A DNA stretch of 52,993 nucleotides, the filler included, from Squatina squatina (Eukaryota), in NCBI GenBank assembly GCA_031763465.1. It is 3 parts of 3 records of this genome, joined end to end, with 100 filler letters (N's around TTAATTAATTAA, not from the genome) between each part and the next. Parts side by side here need not be neighbours in the genome. Positions count along the whole stretch, not along the records: positions 36,020 to 52,993 come from JARFOE010000036.1; 2 more parts are not named here. The stretch is one strand, 5' to 3'. Shown here piece by piece: positions 15,738 through 50,980 of this stretch (positions are counted from its first letter, which is position 1; every line of letters begins with the position of its first letter). The translations under genes were made by a program, and so were the position numbers. Below the pieces are notes generated by a model. That model made no database searches. It saw nothing but the letters and a program-made list of their open reading frames with translations, and had not been told where the DNA came from.

Positions 15738-15900
15738 GTAAGGAGTTCTAACTGACTGTACTTTTCAGGCAAACAGTTGGAAATTTCAGTCCCATATCAA
15801 TATGTGTATTAATATTTTAAACTACAAAGTAAAAAATAAGTTATAAAATATTGTAGNNNNNNNNNNNNNNNNNNNNNNNNNNNNNNNNNNNNNNNNNNNN

Positions 15901-15912
15901 TTAATTAATTAA
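15901..15912. other. Artificial six-frame-stop scaffold linker TTAATTAATTAA
   Basis: Palindromic 12-mer centred between 44 N on each side, 100 nt in total. Confidence 0.95.
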
Positions 15913-18900
15913 NNNNNNNNNNNNNNNNNNNNNNNNNNNNNNNNNNNNNNNNNNNNAAGCAATATTAAACTACATTGATGTGAATAATCACAATTTGTGT
16001 ATGTAAATTAATAAAACAATTGCCACAGGTACCTCATTTCACTCAATAATACAAAGAGTTCTTTAAATGCCTGAAATATTTAGAAACACAGAGATGAATG
16101 CTTTGAACAATTAGCAATGTAGTCAGTCTTTTTGTTAAACTGGTGAAAGATTTGCTGCTGAACCCCTGTTACCCCTTTTCTCCCTCCACGTCTGTTACAA
16201 AACCGAGCCAGGATAACAGGCGAGTGTACACAAATGTTTATCCTAATCACTGTCTAATGACAGGGACTTATGTCCTTAACACAGTTGATTTGTTTCTCAG
16301 GGTTTAAAAGTAGATTATTTCCATGGTTTGGGCTTAGTGTAAGCTGTTGAAAAACCACAAGCACTGCACTTCAGTCTGCTTTTGGGAAGTTAGCCAAAGG
16401 TAATCTGATTAAAAGGGCATTTTTCCTACATGAAACTGCTTTAAAAGTTGTGTTTGTTCAGATAGCACTGGGCCAGAAACAAATTGCTTTTTGAGTAGAA
16501 CAAAATCTGTTGGAGAAAATTAAACGTAGCTTCACCTCAATAATTTTACCGAAAAAATAAATAACATCAGTCCTCTGATACCTATTGTAGAACATTGCAC
16601 CATTTCCAAAAACTAAGAGGGNNNNNNNNNNNNNNNNNNNNNNNNNNNNNNNNNNNNNNNNNNNNNNNNNNNNNNNNNNNNNNNNNNNNNNNNNNNNNNN
16701 NNNNNNNNNNNNNNNNNNNNNNNNNNNNNNNNNNNNNNNNNNNNNNNNNNNNNNNNNNNNNNNNNNNNNNNNNNNNNNNNNNNNNNNNNNNNNNNNNNNN
16801 NNNNNNNNNNNNNNNNNNNNNNNNNNNNNNNNNNNNNNNNNNNNNNNNNNNNNNNNNNNNNNNNNNNNNNNNNNNNNNNNNNNNNNNNNNNNNNNNNNNN
16901 NNNNNNNNNNNNNNNNNNNNNNNNNNNNNNNNNNNNNNNNNNNNNNNNNNNNNNNNNNNNNNNNNNNNNNNNNNNNNNNNNNNNNNNNNNNNNNNNNNNN
17001 NNNNNNNNNNNNNNNNNNNNNNNNNNNNNNNNNNNNNNNNNNNNNNNNNNNNNNNNNNNNNNNNNNNNNNNNNNNNNNNNNNNNNNNNNNNNNNNNNNNN
17101 NNNNNNNNNNNNNNNNNNNNNNNNNNNNNNNNNNNNNNNNNNNNNNNNNNNNNNNNNNNNNNNNNNNNNNNNNNNNNNNNNNNNNNNNNNNNNNNNNNNN
17201 NNNNNNNNNNNNNNNNNNNNNNNNNNNNNNNNNNNNNNNNNNNNNNNNNNNNNNNNNNNNNNNNNNNNNNNNNNNNNNNNNNNNNNNNNNNNNNNNNNNN
17301 NNNNNNNNNNNNNNNNNNNNNNNNNNNNNNNNNNNNNNNNNNNNNNNNNNNNNNNNNNNNNNNNNNNNNNNNNNNNNNNNNNNNNNNNNNNNNNNNNNNN
17401 NNNNNNNNNNNNNNNNNNNNNNNNNNNNNNNNNNNNNNNNNNNNNNNNNNNNNNNNNNNNNNNNNNNNNNNNNNNNNNNNNNNNNNNCCGTGCAACTGAT
17501 ATGAAGTAAAATTCATGTTATTTTACAGGAACACGAATTGTAGTGAGATAATTTTGTTTGCTTTAGTGATGATTTCAAACTTAACACTTTCTCAGATTTG
17601 TAACATGATTTGTAAACTAATGAAAGACATCCTTACAAACAGGCCTGCAGGGTTAATTGCTGCAATTTCTTTACAATGAAGAATTTCATTTCCATCAATT
17701 CATCATGAATTTAATAAGGTTTCTATGGGGTTCTAAACTGATGGTCAAGATCACTGTGCACAAGAAATGTTTCGGCAAATATATTGCAAACTTGTACAGT
17801 AGTAAGTCTATGGAAGATTTATTATTACATTCCGTATACTTGTCCTTGTTTAACTCTTGTTCAGATTGGCTCCTTTGATTGTCTGCTTTATTTCCGCTGC
17901 GTTATTTCCTATGGAAGTGTATCGACTACCCTGAAAATGTTTGTTCTTTGTCACTGGTTACATTAGCAATGGTACAACAGGCTCTCGATTTACTGTTTTC
18001 AAATAACTGNNNNNNNNNNNNNNNNNNNNNNNNNNNNNNNNNNNNNNNNNNNNNNNNNNNNNNNNNNNNNNNNNNNNNNNNNNNNNNNNNNNNNNNNNNN
18101 NNNNNNNNNTGTGCCCTTCAGCATGCCATTCTATTGAAAGGAACAGTGCCTCGCCAGAAAAGTTCAGCACAACCAGCAATAAAACACAAGTGCTGCTTTG
18201 TCAAGTCACGAATGATTACTTGGACAAGTGCCTTGGTGTGAGGCAAACATTATAAAACAACGGTTCAAACAGTGAAAACAAAGAGGCAATTCACTCTCTC
18301 CATTAGTTTTAATGTCATTTGGTAAACACAATTACTGCATCTTTGGCACAGATCACAAGCACCTTGTTAACTGATGTGTAGGTACAGTCTTTGGGAATCA
18401 GCTCCTCCATTGAACATATTCAAAAATGTGTGATGAAAGAAAATAAGTTCCAGTTTTTGAAAGCCTATGTATAATTCTTATTGTACAATTTTGATAATCT
18501 TATGCTTTTTATAAATGCAATAGCTTTGAAGCTGTGCACTCCCTTACAGGAATGGCACAGCTATACAATTTCAGATGCAGGAAGTAGCAGATCTTTCTGA
18601 ATTTGGACTGGTAATTTAGTGGGTCCGTCAGGAAATTTACCAACCACTTTTACATTTAGTGATTGGGAACCAAAGGCCTGTTTTCAATTAGTGTGCCTGC
18701 TGCTTTAAAGGGAATTCGGAGCCACCAACTTGGTACCATGTCCCAGATTAGCACACTTTACTTAAACTCACAACACCCCTTTAAGACTCAAAAATATCAA
18801 ATTGTTATCAGCACTGTGTAGTTGAGTTTCTAATATGCGTTTATCTAATTAATTAAACAATATAAGAAGCAAGAATCTTCAGTAAATATCTACAGCTTAA

Positions 18901-34200: not shown

Positions 34201-35963
34201 GATTCTATCCTACATTCCTCATCTGAATGGATCGGCGTGATTCCAAAAGGTCTGTGAAAACACTGTCACTTGAGAGTTAGCTGAACAAAAAGGTATTTTA
34301 ATATTATAATGATGCTTCTGTACACTGTGCACACATAATTATCTGGAGTAAATAGAGAATTTTTCCATTACATTAAAAATCCATTAAAAAAAAAATTGAG
34401 GAAAAATATTCATTCAATGTTATGTATCACTTTCATTTATTTTATGGTGCTTAGACTTGGAGAAATCTACTTAGAAAATGAAGCTGTTCTGATTTTGTCT
34501 GTATATAGTCTAACATCTCAGAACTCTGCAGCACTATTTACACAGTGAGGTTTGGTACAAGTGGTTTGGTACAGGCTAATAAGTTCAACTTCTTCTTACA
34601 CAGACTTCAGATCATATATAAAAAAAAATCCTCTAAATATCCTACTCTCTTCTAAAGTGCCTACGTAGGCATGTCACTGCCAGTAATCACAGAAAGGTGA
34701 CCACATTTGTAATCGGATCATTGGCTAAAACGAATGAGTCAATCTGATCAATATAAACTGCATATGCAGCAAAGAGCTCTTAATGGCTCTTAATCTCCAT
34801 TAGGTTGAGTGGAGGAAGTCAGAGGAAGCTGCATCGCTTTTCACCCCATTTNNNNNNNNNNNNNNNNNNNNNNNNNNNNNNNNNNNNNNNNNNNNNNNNN
34901 NNNNNNNNNNNNNNNNNNNNNNNNNNNNNNNNNNNNNNNNNNNNNNNNNNNGCAGAAATTTACCCAAAACGGGTGCTCCTCCCAGCCGACAATCTCATAC
35001 TTGACCAATACACACAGCCTGGAAGATGTATCTCCCTCACAGATTCTCAAAATGGTGAAACTCTCATTTAATATTGCTGTTATCACATAAACACGTCATC
35101 ATCTCCCTCTCATTCTTTCATAACCATAAGAGGTATTTTATCAGTGTGCACTTGTGTCTGAGTCATATATCATAGCCTGTCAATATCTGTAAGGCCCTGT
35201 AATGCCATTAAGTTTGTGGCTGTCATGGTTTCACAGCGGATAGCCGCAAAAGTCATGAAATTCTTGTTGAAACTGTAGCAGCAAAGGATATAAAATTGAA
35301 CGTTGTACTTCAGTGATAAATGGCAGTAGTTGTAATGCAGGCACAGTTCCTTTATGCAGTATGAACTACTCCCTTTCTGTTGCTCAAGATTCACAGTGCA
35401 AAGAGACACGGTTATTATGGTATTTAGGCTGTCTCTCTGTCACAATTAGAATGAGAAAAGGAGCCTGTGAAAAATATCAACAGCTTCAGGATGCAAAAAC
35501 CACAGCATCATGTCAGCTGGTGATCCTGCCAAACATCGTGGAAAATTCCCCAGCACTGTTATTTCAAATGAACTCTGCAATTTTGAGCTCTTTTCAAATA
35601 CTATACCCAGAAAACAATTACTGTGAATTACCATAGATTTTGTTGTCAGAAAATTTGCCATTGAGTCTCTGGGTAGCAGTAATATGTTTATTGGTATGAC
35701 AGGAGTAGTTTTCTTGTGGCTGAGCAGACAATGGAGAGTTCCTAAAGAACCCAGCTATTTTTGATAGTACGCCCTCTGGTGCATCAGTTAAATTCATTTG
35801 CTTTAGTATTCCCCAAATAGTTCATATAGGCAAACTCATCGCCGAATAAATTGGACGTTGACGTGTCCATTTTTCGAACATGAAATAGATGAAACAGGGT
35901 CCAAAATCGGATTGCAATCNNNNNNNNNNNNNNNNNNNNNNNNNNNNNNNNNNNNNNNNNNNN

Positions 35964-35975
35964 TTAATTAATTAA
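35964..35975. other. Artificial six-frame-stop scaffold linker TTAATTAATTAA
   Basis: Same 44N-TTAATTAATTAA-44N structure as at 15901. Confidence 0.95.
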
Positions 35976-36473
35976 NNNNNNNNNNNNNNNNNNNNNNNNN
36001 NNNNNNNNNNNNNNNNNNNATTTAGCAAGTCAAAGCCAAGTCAGCAGCAGACTCCATGCTGGACTGGCAGCTTCCACACTAATACTGGGCAAAAGGATTA
36101 AAAAAAGCTTGCTGGCAGCTCAATCCAAGAGGTAGAATCTCCTCTCTAAACCCCAAGGATGGCCTCAGCAGAGCCACTAGACACAAGCCTTCCTGTCTGG
36201 GGCATGTAGGATGGGGAGGAGAGACTGGGCAGAAGGTGGTACACACAACCGTAGATAGTTGCAGCAGAGGAGGCCGCCATTTGGCCCAGGAACTTGCTAG
36301 AGCAATCCAAAACTCAGCCAATGCCCTGGCCACACTCATCTGGGTTGAATCATAAACGCTGGGGATAAAACAATTCTTTAAAACCCCGCTTTGTCTGTAA
36401 TATCTAGCAGATTCACTGATTCTCAGCCACTGCAGGTTAATCTGTGCCCTCAATTAGGTCACGTCCTTCATAC

Positions 36474-39986: not shown

Positions 39987-40104
39987 NNNNNNNNNNNNNN
40001 NNNNNNNNNNNNNNNNNNNNNNNNNNNNNNNNNNNNNNNNNNNNNNNNNNNNNNNNNNNNNNNNNNNNNNNNNNNNNNNNNNNNNNCTGTCCCAGAAGAG
40101 AAAT

Positions 40105-41487
40105 TTGTGATGCACTGTCCCAGTAGTGCAGTGTGTGACTCAGTATTCCAGGAGTGCAGTGTGTGAATCACTGGTCCAGTAGTGCACTCTGTGATTCACT
40201 GTCCCAGGAGTGCAGTGTGTGACTCACTGTCCCAGGAGTGCAGTGGGTGACTCACTGTCCCAGTAGTGCAGTGTGTGACTCAGTGTCCCAAGACTGCAGT
40301 GTGTGACTCACTGTCCCAGTAGTGCAGGGTGTGATTCAGTGTCCCAGGAGTGCAGTGTGTGACTCAATGTCCCAGTAGTGCAGTGTGTGATTCACTGTCC
40401 CAGTAGTCCAGTGTGTTACACAGTGTCCCAGTAGTGCAGTGTTTGATTCACTGTCCCAGTAGTGCAGTGTGTGATTCACTGTCCCTGTAGTGCAGTATGC
40501 GACTCACTGTCCCAGGAGTGCAGTGTATGACTCACTGTCCTAGTAGTGCAGTGTGTGACTCACTGTCCCAGGAGTGCACTGTGTTACTCACTGTCCCAGT
40601 AGTGCAGTGTGACACTCACTGTCCCAGTAGTGCAGGGTGTGACTCACTGTCCCAGTAGGTCAGTGAGTGATTCACTGTCAAGTAGTGCAGTGTGTGACTC
40701 ACTGTCCCAATAGTGCACTGTGTGACTCACTGTCCCAGGAGTGCAGTGTGTGACTCACTGTCCCAGTAGTGCAGTGTGTGACCCACTGTCCCAGTAGTGC
40801 AGTGTGTGACTCGCTGTCCCAGTAGTGCAGTGTGTGATTCAATGACCCAGTAGTGCTGTGTGTGACTCACTGTCCCAGTAGTGCAGTGTGTGATTCATAT
40901 TCCCAGTAGCGCAGTGAGCGATTCACCATTCCCGGAGTGGAGTGTGAAACTCACTGTCCCAATAGTGCTGTGTGTGACTCACTTTCACATTAGTGCAGTG
41001 TGAGATTCACAGTCCCAGGAGTGCAGTGTGTGACTCACTGTCCCAGTAGTGCAGTGTATGATTCACTGTCCCAGTAGTGCAGTGTGTGACTCACTGTCCC
41101 AGGACTGCACTGTGTTACTCACTGTCCCAGTAGTGCAGTGTGACACTCACTGACCCAGTAGTGCAGGGTGTGACTTACTGTCCCAGTAGTTCAGTGAGTG
41201 ATTCACTGTCCCAGTAGTGCAGTGTGTGACTCACTGTCCCAGTAGTGCAGTGTGTGACTCGCTGTCCCAGTAGTGCAGTGTGTGACTCACTGTCCCAGTA
41301 TTGCAGTGTGTGACTCACTATCCGAGTAATGCAGTGTGTGACACACTGTCCCAGTAATGCAGTTTGTGAAAACTGTCCCAGTATTGCAGTGTGACTCACT
41401 GTCCCAGTATTGCAGTGTGTGACACACTGTCCCAGTATTGCAGTATATGACTCACTATCCCAGTATTGCTGTGTGTGACTCACTATC
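40105..41487. repeat. 28-bp minisatellite, about 50 units, consensus tcactgtcccagtagtgcagtgtgtgac
   Basis: Head-to-tail units without spacers; unit length counted at 41231-41258. Confidence 0.95.
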
Positions 41488-41563
41488 ATAGAAATATAGA
41501 AACATAGAAAATAGGTGCAGGAGTAGGCCATTAGGCCCTTCGAGCCTGCACCGCCATTCAATA
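41488..41563 (-). mobile_element. CR1 3' tail abutting the minisatellite
   Basis: atagaaatatagaaacatagaaaataggtgcaggagtaggccatt terminal signature. Confidence 0.75.
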
Positions 41564-41683: not shown

Positions 41684-42567
41684 GGAGAGGGATAAACCAG
41701 GAAACAACAGGCCAGTTAGCCTATTATTGGAAACCATTATCAAGGAAAAATAAACTTTCATTGGAAAGGCAAGGGTTAATCAAGGAGAGCCAGCGTGGAT
41801 TTGTTGAAGGCAAATTGTGTGTAACTAACTTGATTGAATTCTTTGCTGAGGTTACAGAGAAGAATGATCAAGGAGGTGCAGTAGATTTGTATATATGAAC
41901 TTTCAGAAGGCGTTTGACAAAGTGTCACACAGGAGACGTATTAAGGAGATGGAATCCCATGGAATTAAGGGGGAAGTTGCAGTATGGATACAAAATTGGC
42001 TTTGTGACAGGAAGCAAAGGCTGGTAGCAGATGTATATTTTTTAGAGTGGGAGGTCATTTGCTGCGGTGTTGCCGAAGAGTAAGTTTTGGGTCCATTACT
42101 CTTCTGAATTTTTATAAACGACATAGGCTCGGGCGTAGGGAGCAGCATTATAAAGTTTGCAGATGATAGGAAACTTGACAAAGTAGTAGATAGTGCTGAG
42201 GATAGTTATAGGCGCCAGGATGGTGAAATGGGCCAAAGCATGAGAGATGGAGTTTCATGCGGAGATGTGTGAAATGATGCACTTTGGGAGGAATATGGAA
42301 AGACAGTATACTATAAAAGGCCCAATTGTTATAAGTGTAAATGAGCGAAGAGACCTTGGTGTCCATTTACACAAATCCTTAAAGGTGGCAAGGCAAGTTG
42401 ATAAGGTGGCTTGAAAACAGCACACAGGCTCCTTGAGTTTATAAATAGAGGCATAGAATATATAAACAAAGAGATCAGTCTGGAAGTTTACAAATCACCG
42501 GCTAGGCCTCAGCTGGAGCACTGTGGGCAATTCTGGGCACCACACTTCAGGAAAGATATAAAGACCT
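41684..42567 (+). mobile_element. Degenerate CR1 LINE reverse transcriptase region
   Basis: Motifs MNFQKAFDKVSH, WIQNWLCDRKQR, KFADD and RPQLEHCGQFWAPHFRKD, with stops and frameshifts. Confidence 0.9.
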
Positions 42568-45009: not shown

Positions 45010-45453
45010 AGGCAATATAAACTAAATAGTACCATTTTAAAGGGGGTGCAGGAACAGAGAGACCTGTGGATGTATGTACACAAATCTTTGAAAGTGGCAG
45101 GACCAGTTGAGAATTCTGTTAAAAGCATAAGGGATACTGGGCTTTATAAAGAGAATAGAATACAAAAGCAAAGATGATATGCTCACTCTTTATAATTCAC
45201 AGGTTAGGCCCCAGCTGAAGTATTGTGCCAAAGTCTGGGTACCACACTTCAGGAAGGATGCCAAGGCCTTGGAGAGGGTGCAGAGGAGATTTATTGGAAT
45301 GGTTCCAGGGATGATGGACTTCAGTTATGTGGAGAGACTGGAGAATCTGGGAGTTTTCTCCTTCGAGCAAAAAAAAGTTAAGAGGAGATTTAATAGAGAT
45401 GTTCAAAATTATGAAGGGTTTTGACTGACTAAATAAGGAAATACTTTTTCCAG
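45010..45453 (+). mobile_element. CR1 LINE ORF2 C-terminal fragment
   Basis: LYNSQVRPQLKYCAKVWVPHFRKDAKALERVQRRF...YVERLENLG. Confidence 0.9.
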
Positions 45454-47517: not shown

Positions 47518-48444
47518 AGGCCTTGCCCTGGTATTCCAAGTACTTCCCTTATGTAGCTCTTGTCCACACTATTATCCTGATGGTCAGCGGCAACTTCTGG
47601 TTCAAATTCCCAAAGACCTCCTCAAAGGTCGAGCACTTTGTCTCCATTCTGGGCAAGTGCTTCGAGTCTCCTTGGACCACCAAAGCGGTCTCCGAGACCG
47701 CCAATGAAGACTCTGAAAACAGCCAACACCGGACAAAAATGTTCAAGTCGATGACGCTGGACCCCAGCGAGAACTCTGACACCTGCTCCTCGCTGACCTC
47801 CTGCCCCGAAGTCACCTTTGAGCCCCCCGTCACCGGCTCCCCCTCGATGAACATCCTGGATAAGCAGGACGGCGAGCAGGCCAAGGCCCTCTTTGAAAAG
47901 GTCCGCAAGTTCCGGGCCCACACCGAGGACGGGGACCTGATCTACAAATTCTATGTTGGTCAGACGGTGGTGAAGGCCTTAAAATTCATGATCATTCTGG
48001 GCTACACCTTCACCTTTGTCAACTCAATCACGTTTGAGCACATCTGCAAGCCCAAGATTAAAAATGTCACTGGCTACTCTGTGTTCTTCTGTACTCACAG
48101 CATGGCCTACATGCTGCGGAAGCTGCTCATCAGCTATATCATTCTTATTGCGCTCTACGGACTGGTGTGTCTCTACACATTGTACTGGCTGTTCCGAGGT
48201 TCTTTGAAGGAATACTCCTTTGAGAAGGTGCGCGAGGAGAGCAATTTCAGTGACATTCCCGATGTGAAGAATGACTTTGCCTTCCTGCTGCACATGGTGG
48301 ACCAATATGACCAGCTCTACTCCAAGAGATTTGCCATCTTCCTGTCAGAAGGCTGTGAGAACAAACTGCTGGAGATGAATCTGAACCATGAGTGGACTTA
48401 CGAGAAGCTGAGACAGCACGTGTCCAAGAACCTCCAGGGCAAGC
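47518..48444 (+). CDS. LRRC8D: LRRC8D-like volume-regulated anion channel subunit, partial (TM2 to start of LRR domain; both ends in gaps)
   Basis: Open frame ALPWYSKYFPY...HFVSILGKCFESPWTTKA...GEQAKALFEKVRKFRAH...CTHSMAYML..LLISY...HMVDQYDQLYSKRF...LNHEWT.EKLRQH contains LRRC8D-diagnostic residues. Probably a paralogue rather than the strict orthologue. Confidence 0.9.
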
Positions 48445-48544
48445 NNNNNNNNNNNNNNNNNNNNNNNNNNNNNNNNNNNNNNNNNNNNNNNNNNNNNNNN
48501 NNNNNNNNNNNNNNNNNNNNNNNNNNNNNNNNNNNNNNNNNNNN

Positions 48545-49809
48545 ATCACTGTGTGCATTCCTTGGCAACTATATTCAAACTCTTAGCATCTTTTTATTCA
48601 GTACTGGTTGTGTTACATGGGTTCCTTAGTGTCTATAGCCTGTACTGGATGCTCAGACGCTCACTGAAGCAATATTCTTTTGAAACTGTTCGAGAGGAAA
48701 GTAGCTACAGGGATATTCCGGACATTATAAATGACTTTGCATTCATTCTTCACTTATCAGACCAGTATGATCCCCTTTATTCGAAGCGATTCTCAGTTTT
48801 CCTCTCAGAGGTCAGTGAAAACAAACTGAAACAGATTAGCCTTAACCTGGAGTGGACAGCAGAGAGATTAAAGCACAAGCTGCAGAAAAACTCTCAGGAC
48901 AAGGTAGAGTTGTCCATGTTCATGTTGAGTGGACTCCCAGATGCTGTCTTTGAACTTAAAGAACTTGAAGTGCTAAAGCTGGAGCTCATCACTGAAGCCA
49001 AATTCCTAGCAGCAATGTCTCAGCTTACCAACCTTAAAGAGTTACACCTTTACCACACACCAACCACTGTGGATCCACAGGCACTGAATTGCTTATCCGA
49101 AAATCTGCAGATATTGCACGTCAAGTTCACTGATATTGGTGAGATCCCCCTGTGGGTGTACTCACTGAAAAACCTGGTGGAGCTGCATCTTTCCGGCAAT
49201 CTCAACTCTGAAACCAACAAGGCCATTGGACTAGAGTCCCTGAAGGAGCTGAGACATCTCAAAATTCTCATCCTGAAAAGCAATCTCTCCAAAATCCCCT
49301 CAAATGTTATGGAGCTCGCTACTCACTTGTCCAAGTTGGTCATTCAGAACGATGGCACAAAGTTACTGGTCCTCAACAACCTGAAGAAGCTGGCCAACCT
49401 GTCTGAGCTTGAGCTGCAGAACTGTGAGCTGGAGAGAATCCCACATGCAATATTCAGCCTGGCTAGCCTTCAGAAACTAGACTTGAAATCCAATAACATT
49501 CAAACCATCGAGGAGATCATTAGCTTCCAGCACCTCAAGAGGCTGTCCTGCCTCAAACTTTGGCACAACTCCATCCTCTCAATCCCAACAACCATCAGCC
49601 TCATCAAAAACCTTGAGCAGCTTTTCCTCTCCAATAACAAACTTGAGTCCTTACCCAATGCTCTCTTCACCCTGAGAAAGCTCAGGTACCTGGACTTCAG
49701 CCACAATCTCCTCACTGCTATCCCGCCAGACATTCACCTGCTCCAGAACCTGCAGCACTTCTTCATCACCAAGAACAAAGTGGAGACCCTGTCTGTCCAG
49801 CTCTTCCTC
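48545..49809 (+). CDS. Second LRRC8 gene, partial large exon (TM4, intracellular loop, LRR domain); LRRC8B-like 5' part and LRRC8D-like 3' part
   Basis: Open frame HCVHSLATIFKLLASFY...LKQYSF...DQYDPLYSKRF...LRRs...KVETLSVQLFL, followed by a GTAAGT donor at 49810. It re-encodes the TM4/IL2 region already present in 47518-48444 with a different sequence, so it is a distinct gene. Confidence 0.92.
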
Positions 49810-50591
49810 GTAAGTATAACTTCTCAGTTCGGGTATCACCTTTGTAAATCTTTTCTACACCTTNNNNNNNNNNNNNNNNNNNNNNNNNNNNNNNNNNNNN
49901 NNNNNNNNNNNNNNNNNNNNNNNNNNNNNNNNNNNNNNNNNNNNNNNNNNNNNNNNNNNNNNNTTTCCTCTCTTCATTTTTTGTTTCTCTCTCTCTCTCT
50001 CTCATCCTGTTTTTCATTGTTCCATTCTTTCCCCCCTTCGCCTTGTGTTTGTTTCTTGCGCTCTGATTACCCTTTGCTCTTTACCGCTCTCCTTCTCTCT
50101 TTACTCATTATCCTCACTTTTTTTTACTCACCACTCAAGCATACACTGGAGAGCCTGATCTCTGGCTGATGCATGTTACCTGTAGTTCTAATTGAAATGG
50201 CTGCTCTTCTGCATGACCACAGCATGCAGTCTTGGAATTTGCCCTATAGCATGACCGAGATAGAATGGCACTGTTATCCTTCTCTCCTCACAATGCAAAC
50301 AAATGTACATGTGTGCAAATTTATGAATGAATGTTCTATTTTCTAGCTGCAGTATTTCAGGGGGAAAAAGATCACCCATTCATGGATGGGTCAGTCGCCA
50401 TGACACGATTCCTCAACCTTGTTTAGCTTAGTGACTGTTGTTGATATTTTTATTTTTATTTTCTCCCAAATATTTTGAATTTGCCAGCAAACTGTTAAGT
50501 AAAACACAAGAATATGTGCGTATTGATTACAAAATTATTCTCCCCTTTCCCCTGTCGAAAACAGTCTATGTTTAGATGAATTTCATGAGAA

Positions 50592-50866: not shown

Positions 50867-50980
50867 CGATATCAGGCTGAGATCAGTGACCTGGAAAACC
50901 TGGGCGAGATTGGCAGTGGCACGTGCGGGCAGGTCTGGAAAATGAGGTTCAAGAAATCAGGACACATAATTGCAGTGAAG
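50867..50980 (+). CDS. MAP2K7: MAP kinase kinase 7 exon (Gly-rich loop to VAVK lysine), RYQAEISDLENLGEIGSGTCGQVWKMRFKKSGHIIAVK
   Basis: CAG acceptor ending at 50866, GTACGT donor at 50981, 114 nt. Matches human RYQAEINDLENLGEMGSGTCGQVWKMRFRKTGHVIAVK. Confidence 0.96.

What the first reader, a model, noticed from the sequence alone, without database searches (positions are those of the whole stretch)
48545..49809. Apparent chimeric LRRC8 subunit: LRRC8B-type membrane-proximal half fused in frame to an LRRC8D-type LRR domain
Seen: one gap-free, stop-free reading frame of about 420 codons. Compared with recalled human paralogues, the part up to about 49115 carries LRRC8B-type (partly A-like) residues: CVHSLAxIFK, YSL.WML, LKQYSF, FAFILHL, DQYDPLYSKRFS, KLKQI, LK.KL.KN, VD..AL..L.ENL.IL. 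From about 49117-49200 onward it carries LRRC8D-diagnostic residues: GNLNSE.NK.IGLESL.ELRHLKIL, PSN, HL.KLVI.NDGTKLLVLN, ELELQNCELERIPHAIFSL, LDLKSNNI, QHLKRL, SNNKLESLP, LLQNLQH. Third codon positions also look more A/T-rich before the switch and more C/G-rich after it, like the neighbouring D-like gene (judged by eye). The neighbouring D-like contig breaks off just where its own LRR domain would start. Inference: gene conversion or unequal crossover between tandem paralogues produced a VRAC subunit with a B-type pore-proximal region and a D-type LRR domain. Alternatively, the two genes share a homogenised LRR region that the assembler collapsed. VRAC selectivity and gating depend on subunit composition, so a natural B/D hybrid would be a new subunit type.
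Basis: partly seen in the sequence, partly recalled or inferred. Interest (0 to 1): 0.8.

Follow-up and report, generated by a model that had tools for sequence, protein, structure and literature searches.

The report
False hybrid channel gene from misassembly
This shark DNA reads as a hybrid of two cell-swelling channel genes, but related sharks and rays keep the two genes apart, and the join is most likely an assembly error at a short shared stretch of sequence.

Summary
The mosaic is in the sequence. Of 127 informative sites, 61 LRRC8B-type sites precede 66 sites of a second paralogue with no mixing; the switch lies at 49108-49137. GC3 steps from 0.48 to 0.70. The right half is not canonical LRRC8D but a separate 'LRRC8D-like' paralogue of cartilaginous fishes and coelacanth, the same gene as the upstream contig. 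A hybrid subunit is not supported. In 4 of 4 runs of relatives, one contig fits up to 49133-49136 and a different one from 49114, overlapping by 20-23 bases. None of 332 fetched proteins shows the mosaic. The parents lie on different contigs in 11 of 11 informative species. A second seam at about 49807 joins the frame to a high-copy repeat and removes the last 83 residues. The window is 43 contigs of median 961 bases. Best reading (0.9): a misjoin at a conserved word, scaffolded beside the broken D-like gene. No run holding this organism's own sequence was available, so a real recent recombinant is not excluded. The scan had no earlier LRRC8 note; it has an unchecked note of a paralogue mosaic (TLR8) in this genome.

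The parts
47518..48444 (+). Contig holding residues 145-452 (Heptranchias numbering) of the LRRC8D-like paralogue; ends about 15 residues into the LRR domain
   Evidence: 88-98% identical to 31 D-like proteins; PF12534 319 bits; D-like clade; coordinates
48445..48544 (.). 100-N gap of fixed size; 69 codons of the D-like gene (453-521) are absent from the window
48545..49113 (+). Fragment of the LRRC8B orthologue (residues 297-484, Heptranchias numbering): end of the pore domain and start of the LRR domain
   Evidence: 83-93% to 15 chondrichthyan B proteins; groups with LRRC8B of coelacanth and tetrapods, support 100; GC3 0.48
49114..49136 (+). First seam: 23 bases that both the B contigs and the D-like contigs of relatives fit; encodes a word conserved in both paralogues
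   Evidence: table 8; alignment of residues 189-196
49137..49806 (+). LRR-coding part of the LRRC8D-like paralogue, to residue 753 of 836
   Evidence: 84-97% to 31 D-like proteins; tree support 98/96; GC3 0.70
49804..49863 (-). Second seam and a piece of a high-copy repeat, antisense to the LRRC8 frame; LINE (CR1-like) label is recalled
   Evidence: summed contig depth 2676-6026 against 5-21 on the gene; best, though weak, match in the window is the LINE-like piece at 45275 (score 56, median 35)
50867..50980 (+). MAP2K7 exon (38 codons, AG/GT ends), two unsized gaps downstream
   Evidence: E 5.6e-19 to MAP2K7 chains in the PDB

Best explanation
The reading frame joins a piece of the shark LRRC8B gene to the LRR part of a separate LRRC8D-like gene, and the join is most likely an assembly artefact made at a 23-base stretch that the two genes share. 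Shown: two parents, a single sharp in-register switch, separate contigs in relatives, a second seam into a repeat, a very fragmented scaffold. Inferred: the D-like gene broke in thinly covered short-read data across 69 codons; the loose start of its LRR part was extended through the shared word into an LRRC8B fragment, and its loose end through a short look-alike into a repeat (by a small-word assembly graph or by chimeric library reads, which cannot be told apart here); scaffolding then placed the contig beside the D-like N-terminal half because most of it belongs there. In the animal both genes would be ordinary, separate VRAC accessory subunits that likely assemble with LRRC8A.
For: 4 of 4 runs (4 organisms, 3 studies, contigs): a B contig fits from 48545 to 49136 (49133 in one) and goes on for 559-895 letters unlike the window; in one run it re-matches 368 bases later at the same spacing, diverged, i.e. 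it continues into its own B-type LRR. A different contig fits from 49114 and has 126, 1675, 1695 and 1796 letters before it that do not fit. In 3 of 4 runs a D-like contig fits to 49807 and goes on for 734-739 letters, where the window turns into a repeat; 0 of 332 proteins reach 70% on both halves; all 31 that match the right half at 80% or more also match the upstream contig at 88-98%; no interleaving of sites; end branches 0.023 and 0.018, so no divergence since any fusion. B and D-like on contigs of different length in 11 of 11 informative species; B shares contig length with canonical D in 4 of 4; parents 60% alike in DNA; 43 contigs, median 961 bases, 42 gaps mostly of exactly 100 N, two of them holding a six-frame-stop spacer.
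Against: All read evidence is from relatives about 5% diverged, as contigs; none is from this organism. Letter-by-letter identity of the two genes across the 23 bases is not known, so it is not shown that an exact shared word long enough for an assembly graph exists. The look-alike at the second seam is imperfect (4 bases of overlap for most repeat contigs, 15 for one). The first seam is in frame and in register, as a homologous crossover would also be. Whether the rest of LRRC8B lies elsewhere in this assembly could not be checked.
Confidence: 0.9

Rival explanations
1. A real but very recent rearrangement in this animal or species: microhomology-mediated joining of an LRRC8B piece, a D-like LRR piece and a LINE piece, giving a truncated, probably dead extra copy.
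For: Both seams lie at short look-alike stretches, as microhomology-mediated repair would give; a recent event would show no divergence and would be absent from relatives.
Against: Needs two rare joins within 700 bases between loci on different chromosomes; the D-like gene then has no LRR of its own in the window; the assembly is very fragmented.
Confidence: 0.06
2. One reading: in this lineage the LRR of LRRC8B was replaced by the D-like LRR, giving a working hybrid subunit, and the two near-identical LRR copies collapsed in the assembly.
For: In-frame, in-register switch with no indel; only one D-like LRR is present in the window; engineered LRRC8 loop chimeras can form working channels (PMC6028502, abstract).
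Against: Parents 60% alike in DNA and unlinked in 11 of 11 species; no homogenisation in 14 species with B proteins; the second seam would still have to be an artefact.
Confidence: 0.03
3. An old hybrid subunit shared among sharks.
For: None beyond the mosaic itself.
Against: 0 of 332 proteins are mosaic, and the search was ranked against the whole mosaic (best full-length single match 78%); each half sits inside its orthologue clade on a short branch.
Confidence: 0.01

Closest known systems
Chondrichthyan LRRC8B (e.g. Mustelus, Pristis, Pristiophorus, Heptranchias 'LRRC8B-like' proteins)
   Same: Residues 1-189 are 88-93% identical to elasmobranch B proteins and fall in the clade that holds coelacanth and tetrapod LRRC8B.
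   Different: After residue 196 identity drops to 51-55%; the N-terminal 296 residues are not in the window.
Chondrichthyan 'LRRC8D-like' paralogue (XP_067829307.1 Heptranchias; UniRef name Si:ch211-106h11.1 for chimaera and coelacanth)
   Same: Residues 198-420 are 84-97% identical; the upstream contig is 88-98% identical to the same proteins.
   Different: In the window 69 codons (453-521) and the last 83 residues are missing, and an LRRC8B piece stands in front of the LRR part.
Canonical LRRC8D (PDB 6m04, 9dx7; shark, coelacanth and tetrapod D)
   Same: Sister clade of the D-like paralogue, support 100; best PDB match.
   Different: 0 of 33 diagnostic sites in the right half are canonical-D type; sharks have a separate canonical D on the B contig.
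Engineered LRRC8 chimeras (Yamada and Strange 2018, PMC6028502, abstract read)
   Same: Show that parts of paralogues can be swapped and give working channels.
   Different: Made in the laboratory, with loops of A, C, D and E; not a B pore with a D-type LRR.
Chimeric contigs of short-read assembly (PMC3656733, passages read)
   Same: Repeats, related sequences, uneven coverage and reduced stringency are named there as sources of chimeric contigs.
   Different: That paper treats metagenome and transcript assembly; the same cause is inferred here, not shown.

Membership tests
LRRC8 / VRAC subunit | Pannexin-like four-helix pore domain (PF12534) | tested here: inconclusive
   The frame holds only the last 32 profile positions (16 bits, cut-off 25); the upstream contig passes at 319 bits but belongs to the other parent
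LRRC8 / VRAC subunit | Cytoplasmic LRR domain after the pore | tested here: met
   LRR families; colinear with LRRC8A 310-728; last 83 residues absent
LRRC8B orthologues (left half) | Groups with LRRC8B of bony vertebrates | tested here: met
   12-row clade with coelacanth, paddlefish, frog, lizard and mammal B, SH-aLRT 100 (quick tree)
Canonical LRRC8D (right half) | Groups with canonical D and carries its residues | tested here: not met
   0 of 33 sites; D-like clade 98/96
LRRC8D-like paralogue (right half) | Groups with chondrichthyan and coelacanth D-like proteins | tested here: met
Natural chimeric gene | Reads or transcripts of the same organism cross the junction | not testable with these tools
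   Best listed run holds 0.15 of the words; no whole genome held
Natural chimeric gene | Same junction in a relative | tested here: not met
   0 of 332 proteins; separate contigs in 4 of 4 runs laid
Natural chimeric gene | Parents tandem or highly similar, as conversion or unequal crossover usually needs | tested here: not met
   60% DNA identity; different contigs in 11 of 11 species
Natural chimeric gene | Complete reading frame | tested here: not met
   Starts at a gap; runs into a repeat at about 49807
Assembly misjoin | Seam at a short stretch shared by both sources | tested here: met
   20-23 bases fit by both contig sets at 80% or better; exact identity not shown
Assembly misjoin | No crossing reads, or a depth step, in the source data | not testable with these tools
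   No run of this organism was listed

The most novel reading that the evidence does not exclude
This shark lineage carries a real, recent hybrid VRAC subunit with an LRRC8B pore and first LRR turns and the remaining LRR domain of the LRRC8D-like paralogue, made by recombination between unlinked genes only 60% alike, through a 23-base shared word.
Probability: 0.03. Interest if true: 0.65.

Novelty: not a real feature. Interest (0 to 1): 0.12.

Why it matters
If real, a natural B/D-like hybrid would test what the LRR domain adds to gating apart from the pore, since subunit make-up sets VRAC properties (PMC12182595, passages read), and it would be a rare crossover between very distant paralogues. 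As an artefact it is a warning: in this assembly, gap-free in-frame paralogue mosaics can arise inside a contig. The by-product is of modest interest: cartilaginous fishes (23 named species) and the coelacanth have an old sister gene of LRRC8D beyond the five human subunits; it is annotated in databases, and four paper searches listed no study of it.

Tried and rejected
No whole genome is held, so the rest of LRRC8B could not be sought. The stretch without cover in one run (about 49650-49800) is no evidence. The search of 50%-cluster representatives was swamped by generic LRR proteins. The two top-scoring hits (1386 and 1651 aa, 65-66%) are long teleost gene models, not this mosaic. The donor-like GTAAGT at 49810 was rejected as a real splice site: it lies in the repeat, and D-like proteins and contigs of relatives go on without it. 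A retro-chimera made by a LINE was judged unlikely because the repeat piece is antisense to the frame (reasoning from recall). Pfam scan of 142 other stop-free frames of 62 residues or more: 6 weak hits, all under the curated cut-offs. Paper searches on the gap spacer, on a reference-guided finishing method, on LRRC8E with MAP2K7 and on misassembly gave only listings; none explains this window's spacer. No structure or complex was predicted, since a fold cannot tell artefact from gene.

Full report
The observation. Window 48547-49809 gives 421 residues without stop or N, in a contig of 1319 bases between two 100-N gaps. The upstream contig 47518-48444 gives 308 residues of another LRRC8 frame. 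The two overlap in protein position over 119 codons and are 55% alike in residues and 60% in bases, longest exact run 11, so they come from different genes there.

The parents. A search with the whole frame listed 120 of 780 hits; the best single matches were two chondrichthyan groups, 'LRRC8D-like' at 71-78% and 'LRRC8B-like' at 69-71%. In 30-residue windows the first 180 residues are 70-100% identical to the B group and 30-70% to the D-like group; from residue 211 to 420 it is 66-100% to D-like and 30-66% to B. With 10 B and 9 D-like rows (the Pimephales 'B' row, which groups with LRRC8A, and the coelacanth D-like row left out), 61 B-type sites at residues 3-188 precede 66 D-like-type sites at 197-418, one site is neither, and none of 10,000 shuffles comes near. 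Split trees put residues 1-189 in the chondrichthyan B clade (100/100) and 198-420 in the D-like clade (98/96), on end branches of 0.023 and 0.018. A full-length quick tree joins shark B to coelacanth and tetrapod LRRC8B (100) and makes the D-like clade, with a coelacanth member, the sister of canonical LRRC8D (100). The right half has the D-like residue at 33 of 33 sites that separate it from canonical D. GC3 is 0.48, 0.70 and 0.75 for the left half, right half and upstream contig. By the alignment to LRRC8A the switch is at 497-504, about 85 residues inside the LRR domain as bounded in PMC8440666 (412-810; passages read).

Is the join in nature? Proteins: of 332 fetched up to, 15 match the left half at 80% or more, 31 the right half, none reaches 70% on both, and all 31 also match the upstream contig at 88-98%. 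So in relatives the upstream contig and the right half are one gene; the window lacks its residues 453-521 and 754-836. Linkage, read from contig lengths: B and D-like differ in 11 of 11 species with both lengths given; three species were left out (two without lengths, one with draft scaffolds); B and canonical D share a length in 4 of 4, matching the human B-C-D tandem (PMC12182595, passages read). DNA: no listed run holds more than 0.15 of the words. Four were laid at 80% likeness. In each, one contig fits 48545 to 49136 (49133 in one) and goes on for 559-895 other letters, and another fits from 49114 with 126-1796 other letters before it. One B contig re-matches at 49502-49568 at the same spacing, so it continues into its own LRR. 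The shared 20-23 bases encode residues 190-196, a word found in both paralogues. These are relatives' contigs; they show the two genes as separate there and cannot show what this animal has.

A second seam. After residue 420 every D-like protein goes on for 83 residues. In 3 of 4 runs the D-like contig fits to 49807 and then goes on unlike the window, while 49804-49863 is covered at summed depth 2676-6026 against 5-21 on the gene. Read on the other strand this piece aligns, weakly but best in the window, to a LINE-like stretch at 45275, and the likeness runs on into the last D-like codons; the CR1 label is recalled. Two seams at short look-alikes within 700 bases point to one systematic cause.

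The assembly. The window is 43 contigs, median 961 and longest 2770 bases, with 42 gaps, most exactly 100 N; two gaps are 44 N, a six-frame-stop spacer and 44 N. An internal MAP2K7 exon lies about 1 kb after the LRRC8 contig, with no earlier MAP2K7 exon noticed between, so true distances are likely much compressed. Two unchecked scan notes on this genome describe a paralogue mosaic and a misplaced exon; they agree but are not support.

How it most likely arose. Shown: parents, sharp in-register switch, separate genes in relatives, second seam, fragmentation. Inferred: the D-like gene broke across 69 codons; its LRR piece was extended at one end through the shared word into an LRRC8B fragment and at the other into a repeat, by a small-word graph or by chimeric reads; scaffolding set it beside the D-like front half (0.9). 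PMC3656733 (passages read) names repeats, related sequences and uneven coverage as causes of chimeric contigs. Against: exact identity over the 23 bases is not shown, the second look-alike is imperfect, and no read of this organism was seen. Rivals: a real recent microhomology-joined dead copy (0.06); a real working hybrid with a collapsed LRR (0.03); an old hybrid (0.01).

Comparison with what is known. Five human subunits A-E are described (PMC12182595, passages; PMC6028502, abstract); zebrafish has no lrrc8b and two lrrc8d genes (PMC6994961, passages), and the teleost D and Db proteins here fall in canonical D. Engineered chimeras work as channels (PMC6028502, abstract); the 15 of 35 papers listed show, by title and abstract start, no natural one. 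The D-like paralogue is annotated in NCBI and UniRef; searches for 'LRRC8F', its UniRef name, LRRC8 with genome duplication, coelacanth and shark found 0 papers, and one search listed none on it among 20 of 1,074. Abascal and Zardoya 2012, the main study of the family's evolution, was seen only as cited by others, and no supplements were read; either may mention it. Its place beside MAP2K7 would fit a genome-duplication twin of LRRC8D in the region of human LRRC8E (chromosome 19 in PMC12182595; adjacency to MAP2K7 recalled), but the link here crosses unsized gaps, and coelacanth D and D-like share one contig length, which does not fit simply.

Verdict. The mosaic is real in the file and most likely false in the animal. 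Interest 0.12.

Noticed in passing
window 47518-48444 and 49114-49806; P0005, P0017, P0072 and clusters: An old sister gene of LRRC8D in 23 named cartilaginous fish species and the coelacanth, apart from canonical D. At the position of the pore filter residue (LRRC8A R103, D F143) it has F, Y or P in the five rows aligned. No paper on it was found in four searches.
   Followed up: partly
P0072 and P0091: Coelacanth D-like and canonical D are both listed with a contig of 172,207,807 bases, unlike the split seen in sharks; unexplained.
   Followed up: no
window 50867-50980: MAP2K7 exon about 1 kb after the LRRC8 contig, across two unsized gaps.
   Followed up: yes
window 15857-15956 and 35920-36019: Two gaps built as 44 N, a 12-base palindrome with stops in all six frames, and 44 N: an artificial spacer, not genomic DNA.
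   Followed up: partly
window 40087-41490: Tandem repeat array with a period of about 28 bases, copies about 85% alike (self-BLAST).
   Followed up: no
window 41868-42080 and 45020-45453: LINE fragments: weak RVT_1 hit (E 0.00019, under cut-off) and a decayed ORF2-like tail (label recalled).
   Followed up: no
P0150 and P0123: Database labels that disagree with the comparisons here: a Pimephales 'LRRC8B' groups with LRRC8A, and a Cetorhinus 'LRRC8A-like' is 91% identical to the B half.
   Followed up: partly
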